Part shown: piece by piece, positions 5,805 through 57,505 of the stretch
Layout of the letters: each line of letters begins with the position of its first letter
Position numbering within the stretch: position 1 is the first letter of the stretch
Virus genome (UHGV): UHGV-0101699
Strand: one strand, 5' to 3'
From: a virus
DNA: 64,000 nucleotides
Position numbers and translations under genes: made by a program
The notes under the pieces: generated by a model
What the model saw: only the letters and a program-made list of their open reading frames with translations
Database searches by the model: none
What the model was told of the DNA's origin: nothing

Positions 5805-5817
5805 AAACAAATTGTTT
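5805..5817. promoter_or_regulatory. AAACAAATTGTTT palindrome upstream of cobT-like gene
   Basis: read directly. Confidence 0.6.
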
Positions 5818-5902
5818 TCAGATATAAGAAAATAACACTGCGCGAACAGGGGAGGAAGCAATTCGCGCAGGGGATCAATGAGTTATAGGCGGGTTATAAA
5901 TT

Positions 5903-6133
5903 TTAGTTGATTCGAACCGCGAAAGAGAGGTCGCCAGTATTGATCAGCGTGAAAGAGCCATTTTCCAGGGAAAACCGGAAAACAGTAGCGTCGCGCGCTC
6001 TAACGTTTACCTGGTGATTTGGTAACTCAGATAGTACTTCTGCAGCCTCCAGGTGTGTCAGCGCGAAAACATTGCCTACATTCAGAGCAAGTAAATTAGA
6101 TGACAATTTTTCCATTAATAGCATCCTAATCAA
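5903..6133 (-). CDS. hypothetical small protein (76 aa), divergent from HTH gene; possible Cro-like switch partner
   Basis: ORF with normal GC flanked by AT-rich intergenic DNA; no recognisable motif. Confidence 0.3.
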   Translation of the reverse strand: MIRMLLMEKLSSNLLALNVGNVFALTHLEAAEVLSELPNHQVNVRARDATVFRFSLENGSFTLINTGDLSFAVRIN

Positions 6134-6341
6134 CAGGTTTCATTTGGAGGTGATGGTACTACCTATTGATATAAAAGTTAATAAAAATGTATCGTAATGT
6201 CTTAAACAAAAATAATCAAAAAAATCAACAGAAGTACCGGATTTTACTAATTTATACCTTATTTCGTGTGATTTATGTGCGATAATTGCCTACAAATAGC
6301 CGGATGTAAGACTTTACAATAATAACCGTTGCTGTAATATC

Positions 6342-6355
6342 GGTAAGTACTTACC
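6342..6355. promoter_or_regulatory. perfect palindrome GGTAAGTACTTACC upstream of HTH gene
   Basis: read directly. Confidence 0.6.
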
Positions 6356-6388
6356 ATACAATAAGATCACACGAGGATAGTAACTACA

Positions 6389-6769
6389 ATGACAATGGCC
6401 GATGAGAAGACCGCTCGTTACGTCGCCTACATCGATTCTTTAATCACTGTTTCGCCGAAAAGTCAGTCGGCGATCTCCCGTGAGATTGGTTACAAGAATC
6501 CCAACATTTTGTCCCTGATAAAAAAGGGAAGAATTCCGCTGCCGGTAGAGAAAGTGCTACCACTGGCAGAAGCACTGAATGCAGACCCAGTACGTCTCAT
6601 GATGATGGTTCTTGAAGACCGTCAGCCTGAGCTGGCAGATTTTTTACGAGACCAGGGCATAGCGCCGCTGACTCCGGAAGAACGTGAGGTTCTCGCAGCT
6701 TTCCGCAACCGCTTTCCGGCTCAAACTGATGGTGTTGAGCAGGTTGTGGAAGCAATTAAAAAGCTATGA
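6389..6769 (+). CDS. XRE-family HTH DNA-binding protein (candidate repressor/regulator)
   Basis: 126 aa; HTH-like SQSAISREIGYKNPNILSLIKKGRIP; perfect palindrome GGTAAGTACTTACC 34 bp upstream; adjacent to integrase. Confidence 0.6.
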   Translation: MTMADEKTARYVAYIDSLITVSPKSQSAISREIGYKNPNILSLIKKGRIPLPVEKVLPLAEALNADPVRLMMMVLEDRQPELADFLRDQGIAPLTPEEREVLAAFRNRFPAQTDGVEQVVEAIKKL

Positions 6770-7864
6770 GAAGTTTACTCTGATCAGCTCGGTGGATAGG
6801 CGATCTCCCTTCATTTTGTGGTCAATTTCTTCTAAATCTGGTTGCTCAACAATCGACGAGATGTACGATGAGAAGCTCTCAAGGGCTTCTCGCATCTGAT
6901 CCATGTAGTCATATCGGTCGTATACACGGTCGATACCTTCCAGACTATGATTCATGATCTTACGTGATACTTCCTGAGAAATATTAAGGGCTGGAAAGTA
7001 GCTGCGTGCCGTTCTACGCAGATCACGTGGGGTAAACGACTCCACTTCCCCAAGCTCTGGTCGCTCTAGAATCCGCCTCAACGCCTGGGCTATTGCAACC
7101 TTTGACATTGGCGTATCAGCTTTCTTTTTGTTCGACGGGACGAGCCACTGGCTGCCGGCGCCATAAGCAATCAATTCTTCTACGCACTTCCGCATCAGTG
7201 AGCTCATCGGAAGGGTGTGCGACCGGGCCGATTTGTTGCGAGACCCTTGATTCCATACATTTAGCTTAAGGTCGAACTCGCTTACTCTGGCCCGCAGCAC
7301 TTCATCTGGACGTCTGGCAGCTACGAGGCAAAGCCTTGCCGCCCATTTCGTGCCTGGACATACGTCGAAATAGTCCCAGACATTCCAGAATACCCAAACC
7401 TCTGCGTCCGTCAGGCATCGTTCCCGCGGGGCCGTCTTCGCGCCGCCGGCAACTTTGTTCAGCGACATATCATTCAGGGGCGATGTTTCGATAATTCCCT
7501 GGAAGGCACACCATCCCAGGAACTGCTTCATGATGGAAAAAACACGGCGACCCATCACGATCTTCCCTTCAAGGATCAGCGGGTTGACCAGCTGATTCAC
7601 CATTATTCTATTCAGGTTACTTACTTTTTCCTGAGCGATATGCGGGAGAACATGTATCAAAACACAATGGACAGCTATCTCGGGCCGGCGGCGAGTTATC
7701 AATAATGATAAGCGAGTGAATAACATGAATGCGTCGGCGAAAGTCAGATCGGCTCCCTGCATCGAGACCGATCTGGCATCCATCTGCGATGCCCGATCCA
7801 GATAGGTGATCGCTTCCTGTGACGTGTTTTCCGCTGCGCGTGCTCTGTCAAACGTGTTTTTCAT
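6764..7864 (-). CDS. int: tyrosine integrase/recombinase
   Basis: 366 aa; C-terminal catalytic region ...LRRTARSYFPALNISQEVSRKIMNHSLEGIDRVYDRYDY (R, H, Y catalytic residues in phage-integrase arrangement). Confidence 0.8.
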   Translation of the reverse strand: MKNTFDRARAAENTSQEAITYLDRASQMDARSVSMQGADLTFADAFMLFTRLSLLITRRRPEIAVHCVLIHVLPHIAQEKVSNLNRIMVNQLVNPLILEGKIVMGRRVFSIMKQFLGWCAFQGIIETSPLNDMSLNKVAGGAKTAPRERCLTDAEVWVFWNVWDYFDVCPGTKWAARLCLVAARRPDEVLRARVSEFDLKLNVWNQGSRNKSARSHTLPMSSLMRKCVEELIAYGAGSQWLVPSNKKKADTPMSKVAIAQALRRILERPELGEVESFTPRDLRRTARSYFPALNISQEVSRKIMNHSLEGIDRVYDRYDYMDQMREALESFSSYISSIVEQPDLEEIDHKMKGDRLSTELIRVNFS

Positions 7865-8573: not shown

Positions 8574-8637
8574 AAAATATGAAAATTATCGCAATATAAC
8601 CACGCTACGAATGAGAAAGGCATGGAGCTGCAGGTAA

Positions 8638-18849: not shown

Positions 18850-18995
18850 TCACCGCAGTTTTTAAAAGGCAATATCTTGATAAGCCTCGGTTTTTGAATA
18901 CCATAGAGGCTCATGTGTTTTTCCTTTTGTGATTAAACAAAAGGTAATTTGGAAGGGCGTGGGGCTGTTATCCGTCTTTGCCCAACGCCTATTTT

Positions 18996-20336
18996 TTAAA
19001 GAACTTCCATGATCCGCTCGATGAAGCGCATCTGTTCGAGGTTCTGCTTAACGCGAATACTCACCCCGCCCTTCTGGTTACGAGAACCAGCAAAATAGAG
19101 TCGTGCTTCACCTTTGGCTTCTTCCTCCTCAGTCTTGTTGATAGTGATGACTAAGTCGGCAATACGGACTTTTTCGATATTGTCCGCGGCGTGCATCATA
19201 GTGGCCACTTCGGATGAGCCACCTTCACGGTTGGTCTGGGATGCCGTGATTCCTGCAACGTTGTGCTTATCGTAGAGAGCACGCAGATCGGTGTAGATAG
19301 AACGGATGTTCGCCCGGTCGTCACGGAGGTCGTAACTGGCACGCATCAAGTCCGCATAGTCGACCACCACCATATCCGGGATCATGCCATTCGCTTTCAT
19401 GCTATTGAGCATACGATCCAAATCTGCAGGCGACATGCTTCCTGACGGGCGCTCAACCACCCAGAGATTCCCCACCCCTTTCGTCGCGCCAATCTCCGCG
19501 AGTTTCCGGTGAACGTCGTCACGCTGCTCTACCAGCTTTGACATCTCCGTTTCAGACAGCCGCGCATCGAAGCGATCGGAGAGAATCGAGGTATGCACTT
19601 CGAGAGAAAGATACAAAACGTTGTAGCCGGCCAGCGTTGCGTTAATGGAAAACTCCCCCATCGCTGTCGATTTACCTGATTTCGCAAAACCCATGAAGAG
19701 CACCATCTCACGTTTCGCCCACCCTTTTTGATAGAGCATACGATCCAGCAGCGGAAGACCGGTGGTGATGCTGTTCGGCACGTAATCATCAGAGGCTTCA
19801 TATTCACGGGCCTTGTAACGTTCCGCTGCAGAGGCGAAATAGTCATAAATGCCCGTCGCTTCGTTAGAACCGATCTGCTGCACTTTGGCCATGATGGCCA
19901 TCGCTCCCTGGAAGTCGCCCTTCTCCTTCATCTCGGCCGCTTTAATCAACGCATCGTCGAACGCTACACTTTTAGCGAACGTCGCGACCTGGTCGACCAT
20001 GTAAGCCGTATCAGAGAGTTTTTCCGAGAGCACTCGCTTAAACGCCGCCACAACGTCCGGGAACATCTCTTCTCTGATCGTCTTATCGCGTTTAGCACGC
20101 TTCAACATATCGAGGATGGCCGCCGATGAAGGCGCGCTCTTATACATTCTGAAATAGCCAGATACCATGTTCACCAGTATGGCGTTCGCCGCATTGGAGA
20201 ATTGGTTGGGGGCAACCAGATCGCCGGCACGAGTCAGAAACTCATGATCGCGGCAAAAATACGCCGCCAGACGATTCTGGAAGTCGTCGTCGAACTCTTC
20301 AGACAACCCTCGTCCCGTGTGGCAAAGTTCGGTCAT
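18996..20336 (-). CDS. dnaB: DnaB-like replicative helicase
   Basis: 446 aa; Walker A GFAKSGKST in RecA-like C-terminal domain. Confidence 0.8.
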   Translation of the reverse strand: MTELCHTGRGLSEEFDDDFQNRLAAYFCRDHEFLTRAGDLVAPNQFSNAANAILVNMVSGYFRMYKSAPSSAAILDMLKRAKRDKTIREEMFPDVVAAFKRVLSEKLSDTAYMVDQVATFAKSVAFDDALIKAAEMKEKGDFQGAMAIMAKVQQIGSNEATGIYDYFASAAERYKAREYEASDDYVPNSITTGLPLLDRMLYQKGWAKREMVLFMGFAKSGKSTAMGEFSINATLAGYNVLYLSLEVHTSILSDRFDARLSETEMSKLVEQRDDVHRKLAEIGATKGVGNLWVVERPSGSMSPADLDRMLNSMKANGMIPDMVVVDYADLMRASYDLRDDRANIRSIYTDLRALYDKHNVAGITASQTNREGGSSEVATMMHAADNIEKVRIADLVITINKTEEEEAKGEARLYFAGSRNQKGGVSIRVKQNLEQMRFIERIMEVL

Positions 20337-20359: not shown

Positions 20360-20372
20360 AAACAAGTTGTTT
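20360..20372. promoter_or_regulatory. AAACAAGTTGTTT palindrome upstream of dnaB-like gene
   Basis: read directly. Confidence 0.6.
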
Positions 20373-20400
20373 TCTAATCGTAAAAATATGGAGAAGGCAA

Positions 20401-21126
20401 TCAACACAGTCGCCGTGCTTCTTCCAGTTCTTCCGGGTAATGGGCATAGATAACGCGCTCAGGCACCAGCTCCATCAACCAGACAGCAGAGAAGATGGTG
20501 CGGATACGCTTATCACGGGTGATGTGCTTCAAACGCTCCAGAACCCATTCAAAGTAACGTTCCTGAATTGGGTCATGCTGCATGTCTCCTAAGTGCTTAA
20601 AACTCACTACAGAGTCATCCAGACGCGTTCCCGCACGATTGGCGAGTTTGCTTTCGAAGATCTCAATCAGTTCTGGCTGCCAAAGATGCTGAGGGCGAGG
20701 TAATTTGTCCCAGAGCCGGCGCGCAGCTGCAGAGAGAACAGTTGATATAAAATAGTCATAAGAGCAGCAATACCGATCTGCAAACTGGCGAGCTTTCCAG
20801 AGAGATGTTTTGTTCACCGCCGAAAGCTCTTGGTAAGGCAGGCGTTTCAGACCAGTGCTGAATGGCGCCGTCTCGAAATGCTCGCGGCCATGAGACAGCA
20901 TGATCTGTGAGTATGCGCGCTTATAGGCTTCGGTGAACAGACAGGTTGCCATCAGCGGGTGCATGTCGCGATAGTCAAACCACTTTGTATCAAAGAGCTC
21001 AGCCTCTCCCTGGCATCGTGAAAGACCGATGTTTTCCGCAACCCACTTGTCCATAGCGACCGTGTCCCACTCTGTCATGAAGTCGTACTGGCCGTTGTTT
21101 ATGGTATCAAAAAAGATCTGGCTCAT
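20401..21126 (-). CDS. hypothetical protein (241 aa)
   Basis: ORF. Confidence 0.5.
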   Translation of the reverse strand: MSQIFFDTINNGQYDFMTEWDTVAMDKWVAENIGLSRCQGEAELFDTKWFDYRDMHPLMATCLFTEAYKRAYSQIMLSHGREHFETAPFSTGLKRLPYQELSAVNKTSLWKARQFADRYCCSYDYFISTVLSAAARRLWDKLPRPQHLWQPELIEIFESKLANRAGTRLDDSVVSFKHLGDMQHDPIQERYFEWVLERLKHITRDKRIRTIFSAVWLMELVPERVIYAHYPEELEEARRLC

Positions 21127-22537: not shown

Positions 22538-22900
22538 TCAGCCTTTCTTCATCAACTCGCGCTTTATTTCGTCAGTACGCATCGTCACATCAGCAGCGGT
22601 GATCGCCTCGTTCATCTTTACGATGTCCTCTATTTCCTGCGGGGACTTCTCTGCCAGATGGAAAATGGCTGCACGTATCACATCAGAACGGGTGAACTTC
22701 TCGAAGCGAGGGATGAACTTCATCATCTCCAGTAATTCGAAATACTCGTCTTCAAGAGACATCGTGCGGCTTTTGATTTTCTCTTTGCCACGTGTTGGAC
22801 GGCCTTGTGGACGGACAGGCTGGCGCATCGGGGTGCTGCTTTTAGGTGCAGCAGCTTCCGCAGCCGGACGTTTTGCCAGATCACCCATTTTCATGGACAT
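22538..22900 (-). CDS. small partition-associated DNA-binding protein, ParG-like (disordered basic/Pro-rich tail + C-terminal RHH-like region), candidate
   Basis: 120 aa; immediately downstream of ParA with ATGA-type overlap; C-terminus SLEDEYFELLEMMKFIPRFEKFTRSDVIRAAIFHL. Confidence 0.5.
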   Translation of the reverse strand: MSMKMGDLAKRPAAEAAAPKSSTPMRQPVRPQGRPTRGKEKIKSRTMSLEDEYFELLEMMKFIPRFEKFTRSDVIRAAIFHLAEKSPQEIEDIVKMNEAITAADVTMRTDEIKRELMKKG

Positions 22901-23600: not shown

Positions 23601-23613
23601 AAACAACTTGTTT
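23601..23613. promoter_or_regulatory. AAACAACTTGTTT palindrome upstream of parA
   Basis: read directly. Confidence 0.6.
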
Positions 23614-23749
23614 TCTTATATGCGATATAGCCTAAATGCCTACGGCTTCGGTGTAAAGGTGAAATGGTAGGTTATGTAGATACAGATAAATAAAAAATGG
23701 AGAGATTGAAAAGCTGTGGCGAGGAGGCGGCACAAAGCCGCCTGTCGAT

Positions 23750-34100: not shown

Positions 34101-37100
34101 GCTTAACCCCAGCCTTACCATCACCGAAGTTGCCGAAAGTGACGCCTGCCGGATACTGGGTATCCCACGCAGTTGCACCCTGCAGGAAATCGTAGTTCGG
34201 GATCAGGTTGTCACCGGCGTTTCTGGCAGCGGTCAGGGTGTTATTCAGGTTCGTGATGCTGTTACCCTGGCTGGAAATCGTATCCCCCTGCTTGGAGACC
34301 GTATTTTGCAGCGTAGACAGCGCCTGTGCATCTGCCTTATTCGCCAGATTAGCGTTGGTCTGTTCGAGGCTATTTCGCAGGTCAGTAACGCTCTGTGAGG
34401 TGCTCGTGACGCGATCACCTACGGTGCTGACGTTTGAGGTGACGGCGCTAATGGCATTCGAAAGCGCGTTCATCCCAAGAGCAGAATTCAGCTGGGCTAC
34501 CTTCTCGGACAGTTTAAAACCGAGGTTAATGTAAGCCTGACCAGTCCATTGGTTCACCAGGAACTCAACCGTGCTCCAGCCAGCTTTCAGATCAAAGCTA
34601 ACCGTATTCCAGCTCGCATTACCAAAGGCAACCCTAACACCGTTCACGTACACGGCGCCCGTATCATCAAAAACACGAGAACCTGGTGCCATAGTGATGG
34701 TGGTATCAGCATTGACTTTCACGAAGGCTTTGTAATGCGCGATCACGTAACTGCCGGCGCTCGCAAAGTCCAGTTTTGCCGCGTCAGGAACCTCATCGAT
34801 CGAGATTGGCGCCTTACCGTTGATATCGCTAAAGGTCGGCTCAGTGGTATTGTTCGCCAGTTGTACGTTGTATACGCTACGCACCCACATGTTCTGGCGG
34901 CCGTTAACCATCTGGTTTGACAGCGAAGTGATGCTGTTGGAGTTCGACGTAATGTCTTTTCCCTGCTGGGTCACGGTGCTGTTGAGGGTTGATAACGCAT
35001 TGGACGTCGCATCAATCGCTTTCTCATTGCTCACGTCAACGCAGAAGACGTCATCGAGATACATATAGCCGGAAGCGACACTTGCGCGCAGAGACACAAC
35101 CACGCTGGCGGTTTTGGCTGGCGTATACTCGCCGCTAATAAGTGCCCAGTTAGTCGACAGCCCGGCGCCGGTGATCGGGATATCCTTTAACGGCGTCAGA
35201 TCTGCGTTTCGAAGGCTAATCTTGTTGTTGCCGGCATTATTGATCGCGAAGTCAGCGGATTTGCGAACCCATGCGCCGATACGATAAGTCTTGCCAGCCT
35301 GCAGCTCGACCGTTTGATTGCAGCCTGAGTCACCGCCAGAGGCCAGTTTACCCGCCTGGATGATGTATTTCCCCGATTTGGGGTTTTGGGCCTCCAGCAG
35401 AGTCCAACCAACATACTCCCAACCTTCGAAACCACGTTCAAAAGAGTTGTTTTTGAGCATGTTGCCGATGATCGCTTTCGAGGCATCCGCATCAGCATTG
35501 GCGTTATCCAGCGAGTTTGACAGGCTGGTGATGCTCTGGGACTGGCTGGAGATCTGATTTTCGGCAGCAGTTACGCGGTTTGTCAGATTAGTCACAGCTG
35601 AGGCGTCGGCTTTGTTCTTGATGCTGTTCTGCATCGAAGTGATCTGCTGCCCTTGGCTGGTAATGGTGCCCTCAACAGACGATACCCGAGAGGTCAGAGC
35701 ATTGGTGGCACTGGCGTTCGCCTCAATCGCCAGGGCATCAGTGACGTCAACAAAACCAACATCATCGAAGTACTGGGAACCGGTTTTGAGAGAAGACATG
35801 ATCGATACGTCAACTTTACCGGTCAGCGTCGCCTTCCAGGTATCAGAGACCTCTTTCCATGTTTCATCTTTGGGCAGATTCTCCGGACGGATCGGAATCT
35901 CTTTGAGCAACGTGGCTGCGCCAATACGCAGTTTGTTGTTGCCAGGGCTGCTGATTACCGCATCCGTGGTGCAGCGCACAAAAGAGGACAGCTTGTATGT
36001 CCGCCCTTCGACGACGCTTACAGATTGCGTGATTTGCACCGTGCCAGCGGCGCAAACAAGAATTTTACTACCAGAATGGGGCGCACTCGCCTTGATAATA
36101 CTGGATACGCTGTTCCCTGCAGACCACCCTGCCAGGTCACGCTCAAAGGAGGCGTTAACCAGCAAATTGCTCGGATTGCTTTTGGCAGTATCGGTATCGC
36201 TCTGGATATCGCTCAGCGAGTTATTCAGGGTGGTGATGCTTTCACTCTGGCTGCTAAGGGTTTTATCCTGCTGGGTTACGGTCGACTGCAGACCCGTGAT
36301 CGCCTTGCTATTCGCAGACACACCAGACTCAACACTTCCTACGCGATTGTCCAGCGTAGACAATGCCGCACCTTGTGATTTAAGGGTGTTGCCCTGCTCT
36401 TCAACCTTCTGGGAAATTGTCTGTACTGCACTGGCATCGGCCTTCTGGCCAAGGCTTGTTTGCAACCCGGTAATCTTGCTTGCCTGGGAAGCTTGTTCAG
36501 TGGACAGCGTATGCAGCTCTTCTGCAACAGAGGCTTTGTTTCTGTTGAATTCAGTCTGCAGGGATTCACGCGCACTCGCTTCCGCAGCATCGGCAGTGAT
36601 ACGAGCATTTTTCTCCTGATAGATCAGACCGGAGCGAATGTCGTCCAGATTTCCGCTTTCAGATGAACCGCGGATTTGTGCAGCCAATGTGCTGCGCGCC
36701 TGCGCTTCGGCGGTATCTGCATTCGCACGAGCCTGCTGCTCTTCCTGTAACGCGGCCATGCCTGCGCCCGGCGTCGGTCGACCAACGGCGATCCAGTCGA
36801 ATAACAGGTAATTGTCCGCATCCTGACCCGAAGTGAAATCGAAGCGGAAACGACGAATCGTTGTCGAATCCCGCCACTCAATGTCGTGCAGGGTCAGAAT
36901 CGCAATACCCTTGTCGTCGTATTCCGGCTCATTGATAACCACGGAGCGACCAGCATTCCAGCCAGTTTCATCAGCGCCGATCCAGAACATTCTGGCGTTC
37001 CAGGTTGGGTTGCCAACCTTTTTAACGCGCATCTTAATGAAACGATAAGCATGGGCATCGATCGTCAATCCGTTAGGGGAACGACAGGTTGAGGTCGGAT

Positions 37101-40100
37101 TGTTCGCTTTCAGCCAGCCATCGCTGGTGACGCTCATTGGCGTGTAGCCATTATCATCTTCCGTCCAGCCTTCGGCGTCCTGGTCGAAATACCAGATTTT
37201 CAGAGAGTCAAACTGTTCCCCTGTGCCAGCGGCAATCTGCGAGATCTGTCGCGCGAGGTTTTCGTCACCGGAGGTCACAACCTCAGACAAGCTATCGATA
37301 GAGGTTTTCAGCTCATTCTTCGCGCTCAGCAGTTGGTCGGCCGCTTGCTTGGCTGCATCATTAACATCTGCAATACGGTCATTCGTCTCTTTCTGAATGG
37401 CCGCAGTCAAATCTTTGCTGGTCTGGGACAGCGACGTTGTCAGTGATGACTGCGCTTTCTTAATCTCCTGCGACAGAGCAGCGTCGCCGTCTTTAATCGA
37501 CTGTTTTGCAGCTTCAATTTGGCTGTTTACATTGGAGATGTTGGTATTGATCGTCTGGTTGACCGTATCGATATTGTCGACAATTGTCTGATTGACGGTA
37601 TCAATGTCCTCTTTCAGCGACTGATTGACAGAGTCAACCTGCGCCTTAATTTCGGAGGAGGTTTGCGCAAGGTCGTTTTCAACTTGCTGAATAGACTCGT
37701 TGACTGAGTTCTGAACCTCGCCAATGGCGTTGTCTACCGCCTCCTGAGTGGCTTTGCTGTCGATTTCGTCGAGCAGCTCTTTGCCGAGTTCAGAAGATGT
37801 GATCTTGTCTTTCAGGAAAGACAATACGTCGCGAGTGGTGGCCTCTGTACCGAGGTTCGAGTTCGGCTGGCCTACCATCCCACGTTTGTTTACCGCACGA
37901 ATCCAGTAATACCAGGTCTCGTTGTCACCCAGCCCAGCGTGAGTGAAAGTCGTTGTGGCGGCCTGAGCAATGAGTGTCGCGGTGTCCAGCTTATTTGTTT
38001 TGGACGCATACACGTTGATCTGCGCGAGGTCGACTGAATCAGGGTTAACCCAATTCAATACCACGTTACGATAATCCCCCACCGCGGTCAGTGATGTGGG
38101 CGCCCCTGGCGGCGTCATCGTGCCTTTTACCTGATAGACAGCAGTAATAATCTCGGATTTTTTGCCGCCGAAGGAAACGGAATACAGCTGGAAGTCATAT
38201 CGCCCATTTTCGGCAACATTGACGATTTCATATTGTTCTTCCGTGGCGCGGGCAGATTGCCAGTTGGAGACGTTGCCCTCGTCGGAGCGGCGCCAGCTGA
38301 CCCAGTATTCTGGTGATTTACCTTCCCAGGCAAGCATCAGCTTCACGGACAAGTTGCCCGGACTGGACAGATAGGTGCCTTCTGAGATGACCAGATTGCT
38401 CGGTTTGGAATATGTGGGATCAAGAACCGTCGTATTTTCTGGAACGAGCGCGGCCCCGTTATCAATCGCCTGGTACTTAGATGCATTGTTCTGCACCACC
38501 GTGATATCAAACGACCCCGGGGTTTCACCTTGCGCGATAGCGACAACGCGCGCCCGCATTGGAACCAGGTCTGGTTCGGTGATCGTCCAGACGCCATTCG
38601 CTACTGGTTGATCGGCTGTGGCCAACGCCGTCTTGAAGGTAACTTTAGTGATGTTGTCGCCGGTCTCGTTGATGTCTCGCTCAACGATTTTGCCTTCCTG
38701 ATTGATGATGCGGATGAAGCTACCGCTCTTTTTCAGAGAGACAGGTGCATCGAGGGTGATGCTGTTTTTGGTGAAAGAGACAATGCGACCGGAATTGCGT
38801 TTGCCGGCACGATATTTGTTCTGAATCAGAACGGTTTCGCCCGGCATCAGGAACGAGGCGTCCAGGCCCGCGGTAAAGGTGATCATGTCTGACTCCATAC
38901 GCGCGGTATAGAGCAGCCACAAACCTACACGATGAGCCTGACCACGGCTGGTGCATCCGAACGCAACGGCCTCGGTCTTGCGCTCCCCGTATCGGGCCAT
39001 CGCTTCCTGATCTTCAACATACTCAACGTTCTGCTTATAGCCGTCTTGTTTGTTGTTATAAGTGATCAGCGCTACGGACGGCCGGTCTTTTCGAGCAGAG
39101 CCTTTATAGGTAAACAGGCCATCTTTTACGTTTGCGTTGGTAAACAGCATGACAGGGTCAGACGGGCTGTCCTGCATGATATTCACCATGCCACCAGCCC
39201 AGAAAACCATGCCACGGAAAGCGCCGGCAATATCCTGAATCAGACGATAAGCGTCCTGACGACTGGTGATCTGGGTGTTGATTGCAAAGCGTTTTTCTTT
39301 GCCGCCAAAGCCATCATCAACCTCTTCGTCGCAGTAGCGACCGATCTGATAAAGCTGGCCAAGGTCAATCATTGACTCCGAAACAAATTTGCCGAGGCCA
39401 TAACGAGCATTGGTCAGCAGATCGAACAGAATCCAGGCAGGGTTGGAAGACGACAGAAGCTTAAATGTTCCATCCCAAACGCCGTTATAAGTGTTCGTAT
39501 TTTCATCATAATTCGAAGGCACACGGATTTTGAGGCCACGGATAAGATACGAACGTGACGGCATAGAGCTACCAAACTGCTCAGAGTTAACCTTAAGGCC
39601 AACCAGAACGGAGTTCGGGTAGTTCATTGGGGTATCAACGATCTCACCGATAGAGTCGACCCAGGTATCGTTAAAGAGATACTGATCGTTGCTGTCGGCG
39701 GAGAGACGAAGCACGCGCACTTTATAGGCACGCCCAGGCTTTGGAAGCTGGATTTCGTAACTGCGGTAGTAGACACCAGTCTTTTTCGCAGTCAGCGTCA
39801 CGTCAGAGCTGCTCTCACCTGTAGCAATCACGTCATAGAAAGAGCCATTGCCATTGGCCAGCTGGAACTTAAACTGGACAGAAGTACCGTTTGTGTCCCC
39901 TGTTTTCTTGTCAATGCTACGCAGCGACGGGAACTTCATGATCACTCGGACACGATCAGCGTCGTCGTTATCGATGGCGACCGTAACCGCGTTTGTGGTT
40001 TTCAGCTGTGTGTTAACGGCCTTTGGCGTTTCGACAAAATCGAAACCAGGCATCGGGCTTTGGTCTTGCGAACCATCCCGGAAATCCCAGGTTACACCGG

Positions 40101-40341
40101 AATAGTTGAATGATCCGTCTTCGTTCTCCAGCGCCACGCCATCGATGAAGATAGATTTAGCGCCGTTAATCAACCCGCCAACAACACCTTCCCCGAGCAG
40201 ATCGAGGATAGACGCCATGGCCCGCGAATTAACGGTATCATCCGCTTCAACTGGTGTACGGCTTGAGCCTGAGCTCTTTTTGCCGCCCGCTCCCGCAATC
40301 AGGAGGGGCAATCTCTTTTTCTTGAACTGATCCATGTTCAA
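28165..40341 (-). CDS. J: giant central tail fibre / host-specificity protein, lambda gpJ-like N-terminus plus ~10 tandem coiled-coil + CBM-like modules (4058 aa)
   Basis: N-terminus GSSRTPVEADDTVNSRAMASILDLLGEGVVGGLINGAKSIFIDG resembles lambda J start; FN3-like TPPGAPTSLTAVGDYRNVVLNWVNP; position after I-K-L-M-H homologues. Confidence 0.85.
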   Translation of the reverse strand: MNMDQFKKKRLPLLIAGAGGKKSSGSSRTPVEADDTVNSRAMASILDLLGEGVVGGLINGAKSIFIDGVALENEDGSFNYSGVTWDFRDGSQDQSPMPGFDFVETPKAVNTQLKTTNAVTVAIDNDDADRVRVIMKFPSLRSIDKKTGDTNGTSVQFKFQLANGNGSFYDVIATGESSSDVTLTAKKTGVYYRSYEIQLPKPGRAYKVRVLRLSADSNDQYLFNDTWVDSIGEIVDTPMNYPNSVLVGLKVNSEQFGSSMPSRSYLIRGLKIRVPSNYDENTNTYNGVWDGTFKLLSSSNPAWILFDLLTNARYGLGKFVSESMIDLGQLYQIGRYCDEEVDDGFGGKEKRFAINTQITSRQDAYRLIQDIAGAFRGMVFWAGGMVNIMQDSPSDPVMLFTNANVKDGLFTYKGSARKDRPSVALITYNNKQDGYKQNVEYVEDQEAMARYGERKTEAVAFGCTSRGQAHRVGLWLLYTARMESDMITFTAGLDASFLMPGETVLIQNKYRAGKRNSGRIVSFTKNSITLDAPVSLKKSGSFIRIINQEGKIVERDINETGDNITKVTFKTALATADQPVANGVWTITEPDLVPMRARVVAIAQGETPGSFDITVVQNNASKYQAIDNGAALVPENTTVLDPTYSKPSNLVISEGTYLSSPGNLSVKLMLAWEGKSPEYWVSWRRSDEGNVSNWQSARATEEQYEIVNVAENGRYDFQLYSVSFGGKKSEIITAVYQVKGTMTPPGAPTSLTAVGDYRNVVLNWVNPDSVDLAQINVYASKTNKLDTATLIAQAATTTFTHAGLGDNETWYYWIRAVNKRGMVGQPNSNLGTEATTRDVLSFLKDKITSSELGKELLDEIDSKATQEAVDNAIGEVQNSVNESIQQVENDLAQTSSEIKAQVDSVNQSLKEDIDTVNQTIVDNIDTVNQTINTNISNVNSQIEAAKQSIKDGDAALSQEIKKAQSSLTTSLSQTSKDLTAAIQKETNDRIADVNDAAKQAADQLLSAKNELKTSIDSLSEVVTSGDENLARQISQIAAGTGEQFDSLKIWYFDQDAEGWTEDDNGYTPMSVTSDGWLKANNPTSTCRSPNGLTIDAHAYRFIKMRVKKVGNPTWNARMFWIGADETGWNAGRSVVINEPEYDDKGIAILTLHDIEWRDSTTIRRFRFDFTSGQDADNYLLFDWIAVGRPTPGAGMAALQEEQQARANADTAEAQARSTLAAQIRGSSESGNLDDIRSGLIYQEKNARITADAAEASARESLQTEFNRNKASVAEELHTLSTEQASQASKITGLQTSLGQKADASAVQTISQKVEEQGNTLKSQGAALSTLDNRVGSVESGVSANSKAITGLQSTVTQQDKTLSSQSESITTLNNSLSDIQSDTDTAKSNPSNLLVNASFERDLAGWSAGNSVSSIIKASAPHSGSKILVCAAGTVQITQSVSVVEGRTYKLSSFVRCTTDAVISSPGNNKLRIGAATLLKEIPIRPENLPKDETWKEVSDTWKATLTGKVDVSIMSSLKTGSQYFDDVGFVDVTDALAIEANASATNALTSRVSSVEGTITSQGQQITSMQNSIKNKADASAVTNLTNRVTAAENQISSQSQSITSLSNSLDNANADADASKAIIGNMLKNNSFERGFEGWEYVGWTLLEAQNPKSGKYIIQAGKLASGGDSGCNQTVELQAGKTYRIGAWVRKSADFAINNAGNNKISLRNADLTPLKDIPITGAGLSTNWALISGEYTPAKTASVVVSLRASVASGYMYLDDVFCVDVSNEKAIDATSNALSTLNSTVTQQGKDITSNSNSITSLSNQMVNGRQNMWVRSVYNVQLANNTTEPTFSDINGKAPISIDEVPDAAKLDFASAGSYVIAHYKAFVKVNADTTITMAPGSRVFDDTGAVYVNGVRVAFGNASWNTVSFDLKAGWSTVEFLVNQWTGQAYINLGFKLSEKVAQLNSALGMNALSNAISAVTSNVSTVGDRVTSTSQSVTDLRNSLEQTNANLANKADAQALSTLQNTVSKQGDTISSQGNSITNLNNTLTAARNAGDNLIPNYDFLQGATAWDTQYPAGVTFGNFGDGKAGVKLNRTTTTSPGIFSNNNKPLPLNGQRKYRVVVKAKGVSGAMNMLIRRQNKIGQTDSNYEDKNVTLTSEWQTITWETGLTASNADGQNFKLYAHPANAEIWVDTFKVFDITDEVKIKANSDALSTLSSTVTQQGDKITSQGNSITKLTNDLEAADANIAKKADQSAVTTLTGRVEKTESGLTAANSNITSLSSSLNQQSKRGANLLPDGTFESYAVGHNLSNNRVIVTTDDSHGGNKCIRVTRPNDYNANATDNSDNHIFSGFQVRDNAVFYMECWVKRDAKSTAMAENAQISIGLSLQYQDNSWQWPAVTKAAKDLSSTQWTKVSGYLKSTKSGIKQAMVRISIPNVSSVKAGNSFLIDDLVITEVTDAYNAQSTADANANAISTLDSTVSQQGDQITSQGNSITKLTNDLATTNNNVSKKADQSALSVLSGRVDQTESGLSSANSSITALNSSVRAGNATSGDLISNPTFDPEFSQMGFTVVSSSSEGVPANCPYAYVARIAARDHHPNFAAIPATLGDVYEMSALVACGTGSADFNLYLGTATRPSGSVGAPLSSGGNRKASATWQRVTWRFKITQGIVDRGFFRPFLQINQSSPFGTVWYVTDWHLRNVTDSSKVQDSLDATAKAVDSLTSTVNQQGENILSIGTRTTNLENNLRTTNANVAQKADANALTALTNRVTQTEKDINSTSSSVTNLNNKVDAISVGGTNLIKNSGDMTGWSNVVSDTYRGNAVIGATVKAGSGYKDLREITLESPVDAGEYVYSFYAKGGVTGQTMTAFFYNPNTTTSIETSQGAKGNNTDGRAQFTLTTSWARYWVKWKQTPTTGTKRLILCRIESNTSKDQTVYINSPKFEVGNVVSDWNESPSDSASASAVDSLTTKVNQQGTSISSIGNRTTSLENGLSTAQNNIAKKADASALQDLRNTVTSQGGDLTAANSSITSLQASMNRRTVFTVTARGNGNSVTPGVFDESGKNLFTPGRSWALVTFAKHSDGSTVIATSKTYDVFGSANNGATMSADIEALASGTYVCVLTFDEPTGNRGKVLSALESLGGTSEVVNSLPYRGAYILLGRKGMKPGDGLELRAPTGGDGTAHISTSVEFVNGVMMGLGAAGGVMMKADANASAITTLQNTVKTQGDNIDSLSSSTTALENSLASSNASVDAASQIPGNLIVNPSFERGTEGYTGWSGIATVVTLQVPHLGTKAAKLAAGGSAGVGQKISFKKDRSYKIGIWAKQDPNTTIQSTDNTKFRVAEGNGLIASKAYGPFTSNWQEVSWTWKATKDVVADVQFTAFLSAGAMYFDDFYVVDVTDSVETQANSSAITKLDSRVTKTENDITSQGSQVTQLKNDLATTNTNVSKKADAAALTALTNRVTQNEKEIETQSSQTTSLKNSLSTVQAMGSNPWFDGSLETYSENQQISGSRAVVVSSQKRSGTKSLRVSRSAGEGGNSDKTIGKWIALRENAVFRIELWAMMPADQSPSSGWSTLVGLQTQNAANNNNWPTAITINEAALGARGAWKKFTGTLRVAAGHTRGAFWVSTRGTTGTGTPGYDLYIDDVVVTDITDAKEAQDSANANASALTSLTSRVTYVEGQVTSQASQLSSLTSQVNDASSKVDQMAQTITNNEKTQSSLNTSLQSQIDAQASANIKNQTELNNATTSLAAIKSTQQTQATTISALSQQQTNLTAQVGGQSAELQELKKTVVENGNVNSTWMVKMETNSNGKKYAAGIALGIDGKNLQSQFLVQADRFGLINTSNGNTTTPFVVENGVAYMNAAVIKDGSITNAKIGGEIRSDNFVNGSSGWRIGKDGSSQFNNVVIRGEVHANTGVLNNVTINENCTVLGTVQANKIVGDVVTMTDRVVKNWPASGNTSSGTRYLIATIDGMPFERRMVFNGSVAIVQVWRQNVTIRVDETTVWTFDSGNDGKDFETSIFSIRIPASNFGQRHQITIQWPNRGDSGQFRFTGVVSMYRTTGSISLA
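28980..37210. repeat. in-frame tandem module repeats inside J gene (coiled-coil + beta-sandwich units; DNA motif GTGATGCTGTTrCCCTGGCTGG recurs at ~32889, 33674, 34254, 34921, 35530, 36225)
   Basis: protein-level repeats N[LP][LI]xNxSFER/GxxGW ... and DNA-level recurrences read directly; antisense ORFs in this region mirror the repeats. Confidence 0.8.
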
Positions 40342-55517: not shown

Positions 55518-55532
55518 TTGTTTTCCTTCCAT

Positions 55533-55554
55533 GATAGGTAAGTACTTACTTATC
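55533..55554. promoter_or_regulatory. TAAGTA-family palindrome GATAGGTAAGTACTTACTTATC (1 mismatch) overlapping terL stop, 5' of portal RBS
   Basis: read directly. Confidence 0.5.
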
Positions 55555-56806
55555 TTGAGCCACCAAGAATAACACGATTTTTTACGGGATACCTACGATG
55601 AACCGGGTAGCCCAAGGCATCCGCGCTGTGCTCAATCCCCCCGCTCTTATCCATATCGCGCGAGCCTGGTTTGTAGATAACTTTCTCCAGTGAATCGATG
55701 AGATGTTTGCACTTAGGGTCGATATACAAACGAGTTTCGCCAGAGGCGCTCATCAACATGCGGTTCACTGAGTTCACACGATCAGCAATCGGTGGGTGCT
55801 TTTTCGGATAATCAACACGCAGAAAGCCCTTCTCCTTGAAGATGTCGATGTCCGATTCCCCACGAGCGTGCTGACGATAGGCGCCGGCCGGGTCTGGGAA
55901 AATTGTGACCTGCGATTTCCACCGCCAGAAGCGACGCTCCAGCTCATCGCACACTTCTGCCGTATTCGACGAAAACAAGACAAGCTCATCCACAGCCCAC
56001 AGCTCCCCATTCGGTTGTGGCTGCAGGATGACCGACGACATTGGATCAATGTTGAAGTCCTGGCCTACCCACACCGGTAATTTAGGATTGAACTGCAGCG
56101 GCTTAACGTGAACGCTACGATCGAACGGGTAATACACGCGCCCTGACATGTTTTCGAAGCTGGCGAGGTACTCCTGAGCGAACGACTTAGGGTCCATATC
56201 GTTCTTGGCTGCCTCGATTTCTGCCGTCGGAACGAATGGTGAATCAGCGGTTACAAACTGCCAGCTTTTCCACTGACCTTTGCGCTGCAGCTCTTTGTTC
56301 TGCCCGATAGTCCATAGTTTATGGAATTCGGAGAACCCTTTCGGTGTACCGATGATCAGCGCGCCGCCGCGGGTGGATGACAATGTCGGACGGAGAACCT
56401 TGTACCAGGTGTCTGGCTTCATATCCTGGAACTCGTCGAGCACAACGAAATGCAGCGCAACACCACGAAGCGTATCCGGTTTATCCGCGCCTTTAAGCGC
56501 GATCTCCGAACCGTTTTTCAACACGATGGTCATCGTGGTGTCGTTCTTCTTCCGAATCCACTTACGCGGCAGAACCTCCTGCAGATCATCCCATAGAATC
56601 TGGCGCGCCATTTGGTAGGTCGGCGCGACGTACCAAACTCGTTGTTTTCTTTCCTTAGCGGCAGCGCGAATGATGGTTGAGATCGACAGCCTCGATTTAC
56701 CCCAACGTCGTCCGGCGCACACCACTTTGAAACGATGTGGCGACTGGAAGACTTGCATCTGCCCGGAATGCAGCTGTACGAGACTTAGAGACGACGGGAT
56801 GGACAT
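55550..56806 (-). CDS. terL: terminase large subunit
   Basis: Walker A VVCAGRRWGKSR, Walker B VVLDEF; C-terminal nuclease-like region. Confidence 0.8.
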   Translation of the reverse strand: MSIPSSLSLVQLHSGQMQVFQSPHRFKVVCAGRRWGKSRLSISTIIRAAAKERKQRVWYVAPTYQMARQILWDDLQEVLPRKWIRKKNDTTMTIVLKNGSEIALKGADKPDTLRGVALHFVVLDEFQDMKPDTWYKVLRPTLSSTRGGALIIGTPKGFSEFHKLWTIGQNKELQRKGQWKSWQFVTADSPFVPTAEIEAAKNDMDPKSFAQEYLASFENMSGRVYYPFDRSVHVKPLQFNPKLPVWVGQDFNIDPMSSVILQPQPNGELWAVDELVLFSSNTAEVCDELERRFWRWKSQVTIFPDPAGAYRQHARGESDIDIFKEKGFLRVDYPKKHPPIADRVNSVNRMLMSASGETRLYIDPKCKHLIDSLEKVIYKPGSRDMDKSGGIEHSADALGYPVHRRYPVKNRVILGGSR

Positions 56807-56808
56807 GG

Positions 56809-57450
56809 TTATGCATCTCCATCATCGTCTTCGCCCGATGCGTCAAAATCGCTCTCAGCTTCGCTCAGCGCTTCTTCTTCGAGTGATTCCAACAGATCGT
56901 CATCAATCACTTCGGGCTCATCATCTTCCTTGCGCAGCTGGGCCACCTGTGATGGGGTTAGCTCGCCAAAGACAAGGTTCGGAATATCCTCTTCACCGCC
57001 TTCTTCTTTCTCCATGCCCAATGCCTTGGAGGAAATTTCGAAGCATTTGGCCAGCGTGCCGCTGGCGCGCTGCAGGCTTTTAAGATCGTCCTCAATCGAG
57101 GCCAGTGGCTTACCTTCGCGCTTTGCTGTAGTGACCTCGACCATCACCATCTGACCAAGGGCATACGCCCAGCCGTCATAGCGTGTCCGGCGGTCTTCTA
57201 TCTTTTCGGCTCGGGCTTTAGCGCGCAGTTCTGCATCGGACTTGAGAGACTCGCGCACCATCTTCCCAACAGAATCAGCGCCTTTCTCTAATCCACGCTT
57301 TTTGAAGTGTCTGGAGAGCGTTTCACGACGGATGCCGTACTCTTCTTCCAGTTTTGAGAGCGTATACTCGCCCGAAGTCCATTTCGCTTCGGCTTCCGCC
57401 CATTCAGCCGGAGTCAGGCGAGTTTTGCTCTCGTCTTTTTCGACAGTCAT
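56809..57450 (-). CDS. terS: terminase small subunit (N-terminal HTH, acidic C-terminus)
   Basis: ORF 56809..57498; MTVEKDESK start at 57450 has AGAGGG SD; HTH YTLSKLEEEYGIRRETLSRHFKKRG. Confidence 0.6.
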   Translation of the reverse strand: MTVEKDESKTRLTPAEWAEAEAKWTSGEYTLSKLEEEYGIRRETLSRHFKKRGLEKGADSVGKMVRESLKSDAELRAKARAEKIEDRRTRYDGWAYALGQMVMVEVTTAKREGKPLASIEDDLKSLQRASGTLAKCFEISSKALGMEKEEGGEEDIPNLVFGELTPSQVAQLRKEDDEPEVIDDDLLESLEEEALSEAESDFDASGEDDDGDA

Positions 57451-57492
57451 AGATCCCTCTAAAACACACACAGAGCGCTTCCTTGCGCTCTT

Positions 57493-57505
57493 AAACAATT
57501 TGTTT
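57493..57505. promoter_or_regulatory. AAACAATTTGTTT palindrome (member of 4-copy TnAAACAAnTTGTTTTCT family)
   Basis: 43 nt upstream of terS start; other copies 5805-5817, 20360-20372, 23601-23613. Confidence 0.6.

What the first reader, a model, noticed from the sequence alone, without database searches (positions are those of the whole stretch)
5805..57505. Second palindrome family TnAAACAAnTTGTTTTCT in the 5' leaders of four operon-leading genes
Four copies share the same flanks: GTAAACAAATTGTTTTCA (5805), TTAAACAAGTTGTTTTCT (20360), TGAAACAACTTGTTTTCT (23601) and TTAAACAATTTGTTTTCT (57493). All are in the same orientation, 20-45 nt upstream of the start codons of the cobT-like gene, dnaB, parA and terS.

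Several early genes also share the initiation region AAGGAAAAACAC-ATG (1994, 3407, 5783, 18912, 20336). The 13-bp palindrome could be a DNA operator for a dimeric regulator. Because it lies in the transcribed leader, it could also be an RNA hairpin acting in translational control. Its presence at both parA (partition) and terS (packaging) hints at a common switch.
Basis: seen in the sequence. Interest (0 to 1): 0.6.

Follow-up and report, generated by a model that had tools for sequence, protein, structure and literature searches.

The report
Dispersed promoter-proximal operator palindrome, phage-plasmid
A 15-base sequence with a palindromic core sits just after the promoters of about twenty gene groups in a Klebsiella phage-plasmid and its relatives (four of them in this window). 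It is most likely the docking site through which one regulator keeps replication, partition and packaging genes quiet while the virus lives as a plasmid.

Summary
GAAAACAA-N-TTGTTT (gene strand) occurs exactly four times in the window, against 0 in shuffles, 19-42 nt before the start codons of the cobT-like gene, dnaB, parA and terS.

The window is an SSU5-like phage-plasmid of Klebsiella pneumoniae. The four copies belong to a family of about 16-20 copies per element. 15 of 16 lie outside coding sequence. They are conserved at orthologous promoters in SSU5, E. coli Cyrano, Y. pestis pFra and about 75 viral contigs. The family is absent from distant Pectobacterium and Acinetobacter relatives.

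Features:
- The centre base is uninformative and the arms are near-invariant.
- The RNA hairpin is not stable, and variants are not compensated.
- Copies sit at or just after predicted sigma-70 start sites. A few lie at about -37 or are flipped.
- In published Cyrano lysogen RNA-seq, the downstream genes are at background despite near-consensus promoters.

Best reading: a DNA operator of an element-encoded repressor acting on many promoters, as in P1 C1, L5 stoperators or RK2 KorB. The binder is unresolved.

Main rival: an RNA operator for the conserved FljA-like tandem Hfq-fold protein.

I found no description of the motif in the searchable literature.

The parts
5805..5819 (-). Motif copy 1, GAAAACAATTTGTTT, in the leader/start-site region of the cobT-like gene (ATG at 5785).
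   Evidence: Exact match; sequence. The core is conserved at the orthologous site in SSU5 and pFra. In Cyrano the copy is flipped and carries 1 mismatch.
5829..5837 (-). Inferred extended -10 element (TGtTATTTT) of the cobT-like promoter, 9 nt upstream of the motif.
   Evidence: My reading of the sequence. The consensus scan did not call it at 9/12 stringency. Inference only.
20360..20374 (-). Motif copy 2, GAAAACAACTTGTTT, upstream of dnaB (ATG at 20336).
   Evidence: Exact match; sequence. It forms an island of conservation in the alignment with SSU5, Cyrano and K. quasipneumoniae.
20377..20404 (-). Inferred dnaB promoter, TTGATT-16-TACGAT. The -10 element ends 2 nt before the motif, so the motif spans the predicted start site.
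   Evidence: My reading (8/12 consensus match, below the 9/12 threshold). The same geometry is seen in SSU5 and Cyrano. Inference only.
23601..23615 (-). Motif copy 3, GAAAACAAGTTGTTT, upstream of parA (ATG at 23565).
   Evidence: Exact match; sequence. Identical in SSU5 and Cyrano. K. quasipneumoniae has GAAAACATCTTGTTTTC.
23629..23657 (-). Inferred parA promoter, TTTACA-17-TAGGCT, 13 nt upstream of the motif.
   Evidence: My reading. The block is conserved in SSU5 and Cyrano, and the TAGGCT region also in K. quasipneumoniae. Inference only.
57493..57507 (-). Motif copy 4, GAAAACAAATTGTTT, in the terS (late operon) leader (ATG at 57450).
   Evidence: Exact match; sequence. SSU5, Cyrano and pFra carry two copies 25 bp apart here. 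The Klebsiella sequence is a 25-bp shorter fusion of the two.
57472..57491 (-). Conserved GC hairpin AGAGCGC-AAGGAA-GCGCTCT followed by GTGTGTGTTTT, between motif copy 4 and the terS ribosome-binding site. It looks like a terminator or attenuator.
   Evidence: Called terminator-like by the scan. It is the only leader that folds better than shuffles (z = -2.1). Conserved in SSU5, Cyrano and pFra.
22538..22900 (-). 120-aa protein encoded downstream of parA (candidate small centromere-binding protein). It is a candidate binder, and its own operon promoter carries the motif.
   Evidence: 91% identical in SSU5 and Cyrano. The Cyrano orthologue CYRAN_29 is expressed at 89 against a background of 9.8 in the lysogen. 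No Pfam or PDB match. The ribbon-helix-helix reading is by eye only.
62674..62952 (+). 92-aa protein encoded downstream of the DEAD-box helicase, on the strand that also encodes the FljA-like gene just beyond the window end. Candidate binder.
   Evidence: Conserved in SSU5, Cyrano and pFra at 54-58%. The Cyrano orthologue CYRAN_117 is expressed at 114 in the lysogen. The fold is unresolved: AF2 pLDDT 69.5 and no Foldseek hit.
6389..6769 (+). 126-aa XRE-type HTH protein next to the integrase. It is the presumed lysogeny repressor and a less likely binder of this motif.
   Evidence: Matches phrog_8 transcriptional regulator. Found with the integrase in 913 plasmids. Expressed in the Cyrano lysogen at 96. 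It co-occurs with the other palindrome family, not this one, in the Acinetobacter relative.
57626..57892 (-). 88-aa winged-helix protein encoded immediately upstream of the terS promoter. Considered as binder and largely rejected.
   Evidence: Weak LexA_DNA_bind hit (E = 7.6e-4). At background (7.8) in the lysogen. Still 60% identical in Drgb1, which lacks the motif.

Best explanation
The palindrome is a DNA operator. It is placed over or just downstream of the transcription start of about 16-20 host-type (sigma-70) promoters of SSU5-family phage-plasmids.

A two-fold symmetric regulator encoded by the element binds AAACAA-N-TTGTTT and is present while the element lives as a plasmid. Binding blocks open-complex formation or promoter escape. 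This keeps the early, nucleotide-metabolism, replication (cobT-like, dnaB) and packaging (terS) units off. It only dampens parA.

Shown:
- The family, its non-coding placement and its conservation.
- Its symmetry and the lack of RNA structure.
- The silence of the downstream genes in a lysogen of a relative.

Inferred:
- The transcription start positions.
- That the palindrome, rather than something else, causes the silence.
- Who binds it. The binder is unresolved. My ranking is the 92-aa protein (62674-62952), the 120-aa protein downstream of parA, and the FljA-like protein acting on DNA. All three rank ahead of the XRE repressor (6389-6769), which tracks the other palindrome family.
For: - Four exact copies against 0 expected.
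- In the complete element, 15 of 16 copies are non-coding, P = 1.3e-11.
- The same 13-mer is at orthologous promoters in SSU5 (about 20 copies), Cyrano (about 18), pFra and K. quasipneumoniae. In about 75 viral contigs it reaches about 2.1 exact copies per 10 kb.
- Alignments show it as a conserved island in diverged leaders.
- Across 54 sites the centre base carries 0.01 bit, and positions +-1 to +-6 carry 1.5-2 bits symmetrically.
- Cluster copies follow TTGGAC/TTGACG-17-GATAAT at a fixed 11 +- 1 nt. The distance to the ATG varies from 12 to 44 nt.
- Some copies lie at about -37 of a promoter that has a second copy at about +12. The Cyrano cobT copy is flipped.
- No copy precedes an internal cistron.
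- RNA hairpins are no more stable than in shuffles. Single-arm variants are never compensated.
- In LF82 (Cyrano) lysogen RNA-seq, 9 of 15 motif-bearing units are at background, 5 are 1.2-2.6 times background, and parA is at 5 times background (PMC9928086, supplementary file 2).
Against: - No binder is identified and no transcription start is mapped.
- The strict consensus scan finds no promoter at 9/12 or better next to any of the four window copies.
- The conserved 'GA' extension lies on one side only, usually the promoter side. A purely symmetric dimer does not explain this.
- parA is clearly expressed in the lysogen despite a perfect copy.
- The only conserved regulator with an experimentally known relative is FljA-like. 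It has an Hfq-like RNA-binding fold.
- The expression data come from a relative (Cyrano), not from this element.
Confidence: 0.5

Rival explanations
1. RNA operator. The transcribed motif in the 5' leaders is bound by the conserved FljA-like protein, a tandem Hfq/Sm-fold protein encoded just beyond the window end. The protein blocks ribosome loading and speeds mRNA decay, as FljA does on the fliC leader.
For: - The FljA family match is strong: PF03614, E = 1e-72 and 3e-81.
- The protein is conserved in every motif-bearing genome and highly diverged or undetectable where the motif is absent.
- AF2 gives two alpha+5-beta Sm domains, and the top PDB matches are all Hfq.
- The Salmonella fliC leader carries CAAGTTGT just 5' of its Shine-Dalgarno sequence, the same 8-mer and arrangement as the motif.
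- K. pneumoniae has no flagellin to repress (general knowledge), so the protein needs another target.
- Most copies lie 2-22 nt before the Shine-Dalgarno sequence, on the sense strand.
- It is expressed in growing Cyrano lysogens, log2 7-8.
Against: - Exact two-fold symmetry has no meaning for a single-stranded RNA site, and the hairpin is not stable or compensated.
- Spacing to the -10 element is fixed while spacing to the ribosome-binding site is not.
- Copies at about -37, the flipped copy and copies beside convergent gene ends are not in leaders.
- No copy stands before an internal cistron, unlike regulons of translational repressors.
- Background-level RNA from near-consensus promoters needs more than the modest mRNA effect I recall for FljA.
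- The 8-mer match to fliC has roughly 1-in-50 odds by chance (my estimate).
Confidence: 0.22
2. Dispersed centromere plus global operator. The small protein encoded downstream of parA binds all copies. The sites would serve both as partition sites and as silencers, as in pSM19035 omega, RK2 KorB or the dispersed N15 sopC sites.
For: - The parA operon promoter itself carries a perfect copy, which would allow autoregulation.
- ParA is a short type lacking an N-terminal DNA-binding domain, and no repeat array is evident upstream of parA.
- The 120-aa protein is 91% conserved and is expressed in the lysogen.
- The 6-1-6 architecture equals that of the KorB site (from memory).
Against: - pFra has replaced this partition module with a P1-type one, yet keeps the motif at every surviving orthologous promoter. 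Y. pestis is young, so this is weak evidence.
- In K. quasipneumoniae the protein is only 51% identical while the motif is unchanged.
- There is a single copy per site, whereas small centromere binders usually need arrays.
- The fold is unverified.
Confidence: 0.08
3. A host protein of Enterobacterales, or an intrinsic property of the initial transcribed sequence, acts at these promoters, rather than an element-encoded regulator.
For: - The motif is invariant across elements of Klebsiella, Escherichia, Salmonella, Enterobacter, Cronobacter and Yersinia. It is missing in elements of Pectobacterium and Acinetobacter.
- The one-sided GA extension and the fixed distance from the -10 element fit a promoter-linked sequence.
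- It partly resembles the IHF consensus (from memory).
Against: - I know of no enterobacterial factor with this consensus.
- Perfect dyad symmetry with a free centre base is not expected for IHF or for an initial-transcribed-sequence effect.
- Flipped and -37 copies argue against a start-site sequence effect.
Confidence: 0.08
4. No function of its own. The copies are relics of a duplicated promoter cassette.
For: The cluster copies outside the window share about 30 nt of flanking promoter sequence, GATAATaacaccaacaa.
Against: - The four window copies share nothing but the 15-mer.
- The motif stays invariant while the flanks diverge between genera.
- The centre base varies freely while the arms do not.
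Confidence: 0.03

Closest known systems
Phage P1 C1 repressor with its many dispersed operators (a phage-plasmid; from memory)
   Same: One regulator acts through many sites scattered over a roughly 100-kb phage-plasmid. The sites control replication and other lytic units from individual promoters.
   Different: As I recall, P1 operators are asymmetric 17-mers of unrelated sequence, bound by a C1 monomer. No C1 homologue was noted here. The present site is a 13-bp palindrome.
Mycobacteriophage L5 / Cluster A repressor 'stoperators' (PMC6550527)
   Same: There are 20-30 short (13-14 bp) sites per genome, in short intergenic spaces, mostly in one orientation relative to transcription. They silence the prophage genome.
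   Different: Stoperators lack dyad symmetry, and most are not promoter-associated but block elongation. The sites here are palindromic and promoter-proximal. The hosts and proteins are unrelated.
RK2 KorB/KorA and pSM19035 omega global plasmid regulons (from memory)
   Same: Short palindromic or repeated operators at several promoters couple replication, partition and other functions. The KorB site is also a 6-1-6 palindrome.
   Different: The sequence differs. KorB sites are often far from promoters. Omega binds heptad arrays. No binder has been shown here.
FljA-fliC 5'-UTR translational repression in Salmonella (PMC2652032; bioRxiv 10.1101/2025.10.27.684867)
   Same: An FljA-family protein is encoded by the element. 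The target lies in a 5' leader just before the Shine-Dalgarno sequence. The leaders share CAAGTTGT.
   Different: FljA has one known target, whereas here there would be about 20. The site here is a perfect DNA palindrome tied to promoters, and some copies are not transcribed leaders.
lac O1-type operator centred near +11 (textbook)
   Same: Position: the centre of the palindrome falls at about +12 of the predicted start in the cluster promoters.
   Different: Unrelated sequence and protein family. This is an analogy of position only.

Membership tests
Self-folding RNA hairpin / cis-regulatory RNA | A structure more stable than expected by chance | tested here: not met
   Minimum free energy is -1 to -4.9 kcal/mol with z = -0.1 to +0.55 for the cobT, dnaB and parA leaders. 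Only the separate GC hairpin of the terS leader is significant.
Self-folding RNA hairpin / cis-regulatory RNA | Compensatory changes that keep base pairs | tested here: not met
   All natural variants break a pair without compensation: TTGGTT, TTATTT, ACTAC, CGTGTTT, GATGTTT. Rfam finds no family in the window.
Operator of a two-fold symmetric DNA-binding protein | Dyad symmetry with an uninformative centre | tested here: met
   54 sites were compared. The centre base is A16/C11/G13/T14 (0.01 bit). Positions +-1 to +-6 carry 1.5-2.0 bits in mirror symmetry.
Operator of a two-fold symmetric DNA-binding protein | Placement overlapping a promoter or start site | tested here: inconclusive
   Outside the window there is a fixed 11 +- 1 nt from GATAAT-type -10 elements. 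For the four window copies the promoters are my own sub-threshold readings, and the scan found none at 9/12 or better. No start-site data exist.
Operator of a two-fold symmetric DNA-binding protein | A cognate protein that binds the site | not testable with these tools
   Candidates were ranked only by conservation and by expression in the lysogen.
P1 C1 operator network | The asymmetric 17-bp C1 operator consensus and a C1-family repressor | tested here: not met
   The site here is a 13-bp palindrome of different sequence. No protein in the element is annotated as C1. The consensus is recalled from memory.
Cluster A stoperators | Sites lack dyad symmetry and are mostly not promoter-associated | tested here: not met
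   The sites here are palindromic and promoter-proximal. The definition is taken from PMC6550527.
Cluster A stoperators | About 20-30 sites per genome, intergenic, with an orientation bias relative to transcription | tested here: met
   16, 20 and 18 sites in three genomes. 15 of 16 are non-coding. 39 of 54 have the GA extension on the promoter side.
FljA-type translational operator | An FljA-family protein encoded by the same element | tested here: met
   PF03614, E = 1.5e-72. The gene is at pKPN20-2 76416-76946, just beyond the window end.
FljA-type translational operator | The site resembles the fliC leader target and lies next to the Shine-Dalgarno sequence | tested here: inconclusive
   An 8-mer, CAAGTTGT, is shared with the Salmonella fliC leader, but is absent from the E. 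coli K-12 fliC leader.
ParB/KorB-type or small-ParB centromere | Sites bound by the partition protein and able to support partition | not testable with these tools
   Only circumstantial evidence: a copy lies in the parA promoter. pFra keeps the motif without this partition module.

The most novel reading that the evidence does not exclude
The FljA-like protein, a fused double Hfq-fold protein conserved in SSU5-family phage-plasmids (including those of non-flagellate Klebsiella), is a global post-transcriptional regulator. It recognises the AAACAA-N-UUGUUU element in about 20 leaders. This would make the flagellar phase-variation repressor FljA a domesticated member of a phage-plasmid family of RNA operator-binding proteins.
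Probability: 0.2. Interest if true: 0.75.

Novelty: new member of a known kind. Interest (0 to 1): 0.5.

Why it matters
SSU5-like phage-plasmids are common in clinical Klebsiella, E. coli, Salmonella (pHCM2) and Enterobacter. They gave rise to the Y. pestis pFra/pMT1 backbone, and they carry resistance genes. Their lysis-lysogeny control is essentially undescribed.

A single 13-bp site marks nearly every early, replication, partition and packaging promoter. That gives a direct experimental handle:
- a defined regulon;
- a probe for pulling out the regulator;
- a target for de-repressing or curing these elements.

The contrast with the second palindrome family suggests a circuit with two regulators that can now be tested. 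So does the replacement of both families by a single family in Acinetobacter relatives.

Tried and rejected
- **RNA hairpin.** Folding and a covariation check gave no support.
- **Known RNA family.** Rfam at gathering thresholds found only a tRNA.
- **88-aa winged-helix protein and 71-aa protein as lysogenic repressor.** Both are at background in the Cyrano lysogen. The 88-aa protein is still 60% identical in the motif-free Drgb1.
- **XRE repressor as binder.**
  - Its own promoter carries the other palindrome in all sequence classes.
  - In Acinetobacter it persists with that family's analogue while this motif is gone.
  - It is not excluded, but is down-weighted.
- **92-aa protein as a ribbon-helix-helix protein.** AF2 gave pLDDT 69.5 and Foldseek gave no hit, so the fold is unconfirmed.
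- **PDB sequence searches for four candidates.** Nothing found.
- **Whole-collection scan of viral contigs for the 15-mer.** Mostly single chance hits, so it was uninformative apart from a few multi-copy SSU5-like contigs.
- **Co-variation of the XRE repressor with palindrome family 1 in the most divergent viral contigs.** Those contigs fell outside the 80 loci returned.
- **Primary FljA binding-site papers.** Not held in the library.
- **Literature searches for the motif or for SSU5 regulation.** No description found.
- **Small RNA idea** (motif plus hairpin units on the opposite strand). Rejected. These copies are better read as upstream (about -37) sites next to the terminator of the preceding gene.

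Full report
**1. Observation**

- The pattern AAACAANTTGTTTTC occurs exactly four times on the + strand, at 5805, 20360, 23601 and 57493. None was found in 100 dinucleotide-preserving shuffles.
- Relaxing to 2-3 mismatches adds only hits at chance frequency.
- All four downstream genes are on the minus strand. In gene orientation the element reads (T/A)GAAAACAA-N-TTGTTT(A/C)(A/C).
- It ends 19, 23, 35 and 42 nt before the ATG of the cobT-like gene, dnaB, parA and terS.
- The shared initiation region AGGAAAAACACATG is also real, with three exact copies.

**2. What the window is**

- The window is an SSU5-like phage-plasmid of Klebsiella pneumoniae.
- It is 99.7% identical to plasmid pKPN20-2 over the tested 6 kb, about 98.6% to phage vB_KpnS_p4727, and about 82% to Salmonella phage SSU5.
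- 740 plasmids match that 6-kb query.
- I fetched four complete elements (pKPN20-2, SSU5, E. coli Cyrano, Pectobacterium Drgb1) and most of two more (Y. pestis pFra, an Acinetobacter baumannii plasmid). I also fetched a K. quasipneumoniae fragment and 80 viral-contig loci.

**3. The family is much larger than four**

- pKPN20-2 has nine exact 15-mers, one further exact 13-mer core, and several variants with 1-2 mismatches.
- Of 16 core hits with at most 1 mismatch, 15 lie outside annotated coding sequence. Non-coding DNA is at most 15.8% of the element (P = 1.3e-11).
- Twelve of the 16 lie outside the window. Eleven of these sit in a region of small genes, methyltransferases and other early-type genes. 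A weaker 2-mismatch variant also precedes nrdB.
- SSU5 has 20 such sites and Cyrano 18, at the orthologous promoters.
- pFra keeps the motif at every surviving orthologous promoter. K. quasipneumoniae keeps it at parA and dnaB.
- The 80 viral-contig loci average about 2.1 exact 13-mers per 10 kb.
- Alignments of the four window leaders with their orthologues show the motif as an island in diverged sequence.
- The distant relatives Drgb1 and the Acinetobacter plasmid lack it.

**4. Anatomy**

- Across 54 sites the centre base is uninformative (16/11/13/14). Positions +-1 to +-6 are nearly invariant and mirror-symmetric.
- A 'GA' extension occurs on one side only. It is on the promoter side in 39 of 54 sites. 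I cannot explain this asymmetry.
- Outside the window the copies follow near-consensus sigma-70 promoters (for example TTGGAC-17-GATAAT) at a fixed 11 +- 1 nt after the -10 element. This places the palindrome at about +5 to +19. The distance to the ATG varies from 12 to 44 nt.
- For the four window copies the strict scan finds no promoter. My own readings are:
  - dnaB: TTGATT-16-TACGAT, ending 2 nt before the motif;
  - parA: TTTACA-17-TAGGCT, 13 nt before it;
  - cobT-like: an extended -10 element, TGtTATTTT, 9 nt before it;
  - terS: no recognisable -35.
  These are inferences.
- Some sites lie at about -37 of a promoter that has a second copy at about +12 (SSU5 88319/88368). The Cyrano cobT copy is flipped.
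- No copy precedes an internal cistron.

**5. DNA or RNA**

- The leaders fold no better than shuffles, and the palindrome is not part of a stable structure.
- Every naturally mismatched copy breaks a pair without compensation. Rfam finds nothing.
- Published RNA-seq of the E. coli LF82 lysogen of Cyrano gives per-gene values with a background of 9.8 (PMC9928086, supplementary file 2). For motif-bearing units:

| Unit | Value |
|---|---|
| terS | 7.1 |
| cobT | 7.8 |
| CYRAN_58 | 5.7 |
| CYRAN_85 | 7.0 |
| CYRAN_87 | 7.1 |
| CYRAN_93 | 6.3 |
| CYRAN_101 | 7.5 |
| CYRAN_108 | 5.7 |
| CYRAN_110 | 6.7 |
| nrdB | 12.9 |
| CYRAN_105 | 12.8 |
| CYRAN_106 | 12.2 |
| dnaB | 21 |
| CYRAN_111 | 25.5 |
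| parA | 50 (several hundred in growing cells) |

- Near-consensus promoters that yield background RNA need repression of transcription. The palindrome is the only conserved element besides the -35 and -10 hexamers.
- I therefore favour a DNA operator. The transfer from Cyrano to this element is an inference.

**6. Who binds**

Conservation and expression in the lysogen give this picture.

- **88-aa winged-helix protein and 71-aa protein.** Both are at background in the lysogen, so they are poor candidates.
- **XRE repressor (6389-6769).**
  - It is expressed (96) and, with the integrase, is present in 913 plasmids.
  - Its own promoter carries the other palindrome family in all sequence classes.
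  - In Acinetobacter it persists with an analogue of that family while the present motif is gone.
- **120-aa protein downstream of parA.** It is expressed (89) and its operon carries the motif. However, pFra keeps the motif without it.
- **92-aa protein (62674-62952).** It is expressed (114) and conserved, but its fold is unresolved.
- **FljA-like protein.**
  - It is encoded just beyond the window end and is a strong PF03614 member.
  - It is present in all motif-bearing genomes, and highly diverged or undetectable where the motif is missing.
  - It is predicted as two Sm domains whose best structural matches are all Hfq.
  - FljA is reported to repress translation of fliC mRNA (PMC2652032).
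  - The Salmonella fliC leader shares CAAGTTGT with the motif, just before its Shine-Dalgarno sequence.
  - K. pneumoniae has no flagellin (general knowledge), so the protein must have another target.
  - This keeps an RNA-level rival alive at about 0.2.

**7. Comparison and novelty**

- In function the arrangement resembles the dispersed operator sets of P1 C1, the L5 stoperators (PMC6550527), and the RK2 KorB and pSM19035 omega regulons.
- It is not a member of any of these by sequence or site architecture.
- Searches of the held literature found no description of this motif or of SSU5-family regulation.
- I rate it a new member of a known kind, of moderate interest. The FljA-like reading is the most novel possibility that is not excluded.

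Noticed in passing
It has about 23 copies in the complete element, mostly between genes on the sense strand. One copy sits at the predicted start site of the XRE repressor promoter (TTTACA-16-TAATAT at 6313-6340). It could form a stable RNA hairpin. From memory, the core resembles the E. coli SlmA binding site GTGAGTACTCAC.
   Followed up: partly
L310/L311 (Acinetobacter baumannii plasmid NZ_CP027608.1), e.g. 769, 13716, 37678, 73100: This distant relative has about 26 copies of ATCA-GTCAGTACTGAC-TGAT. It is the analogue of the other palindrome family, with a symmetric arm change (A/T to C/G) and a variable central tetranucleotide. It also occupies the leaders of the cobT-like gene, nrdB, terS and hfq-dnaB. 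Enterobacterial elements carry GAAAACAANTTGTTT at the corresponding positions.
   Followed up: partly
pKPN20-2 76416-76946 (L002:26416-26946, about 1 kb beyond the window end): The conserved 'transcriptional regulator' is an FljA homologue. It is predicted as two fused Hfq-like Sm domains, and the top PDB matches are all Hfq. It is kept in elements of non-flagellate Klebsiella, so it probably has a target on the element itself.
   Followed up: partly
L134:48354-48575 (Pectobacterium Drgb1) and L310:818-1357 (Acinetobacter): Both motif-free distant relatives encode an annotated Hfq immediately upstream of dnaB. The Acinetobacter protein is 179 aa, about the size of the tandem FljA-like protein.
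   Followed up: no
window 5839-5875, minus strand: An inverted repeat, CTGCGCGAA...TTCGCGCAG, lies just upstream of the cobT-like promoter. It is conserved with a symmetric double change in SSU5 and pFra (CTGTACGAA...TTCGTACAG). It is probably the terminator that separates the small upstream ORF from cobT. In Cyrano that ORF is expressed while cobT is silent.
   Followed up: partly
window 57472-57507 versus SSU5 54-95: SSU5, Cyrano and pFra have two motif copies 25 bp apart before terS. The Klebsiella element has a 25-bp shorter version with a single fused copy. In all four, a conserved terminator-like GC hairpin follows and there is no recognisable -35. This suggests the late operon needs activation or antitermination.
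   Followed up: partly
window 3407, 5783, 18912 (and 1994): Identical translation initiation region AGGAAAAACAC-ATG at several genes. The copy at 18912 precedes an ATG that is not in the frame of the annotated primase start.
   Followed up: partly
SSU5 (L004-L006) versus window 5903-7864: Phage SSU5 lacks the integrase, the XRE repressor and the small divergent ORF module that 913 related plasmids carry. This may explain why it behaves as a lytic phage.
   Followed up: partly
pKPN20-2 1100-1360 and 107899-108016 (outside the window): Direct repeats of 21-bp period, TATGCTGTCAGCGGT. They are probably iterons of the plasmid replicon.
   Followed up: no
window 28165-40341, minus strand: A single 4058-aa open reading frame, annotated as a tail protein in relatives. 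It is far longer than the corresponding SSU5 tail and tail-fibre genes.
   Followed up: no
window about 58000-61100 versus pKPN20-2: The window lacks about 291 bp present in pKPN20-2 between terS and the helicase gene. Coordinates converted from that plasmid shift by this amount beyond about 58 kb.
   Followed up: no
pKPN20-2 81721-83273 (outside the window); L132:1063: A 1.5-kb stretch without annotated genes contains a motif variant next to an A/C-rich tract (AAGAAAACAACAAAACAAGATAAC). A copy of this segment is also present on an unrelated 189-kb Klebsiella plasmid.
   Followed up: no
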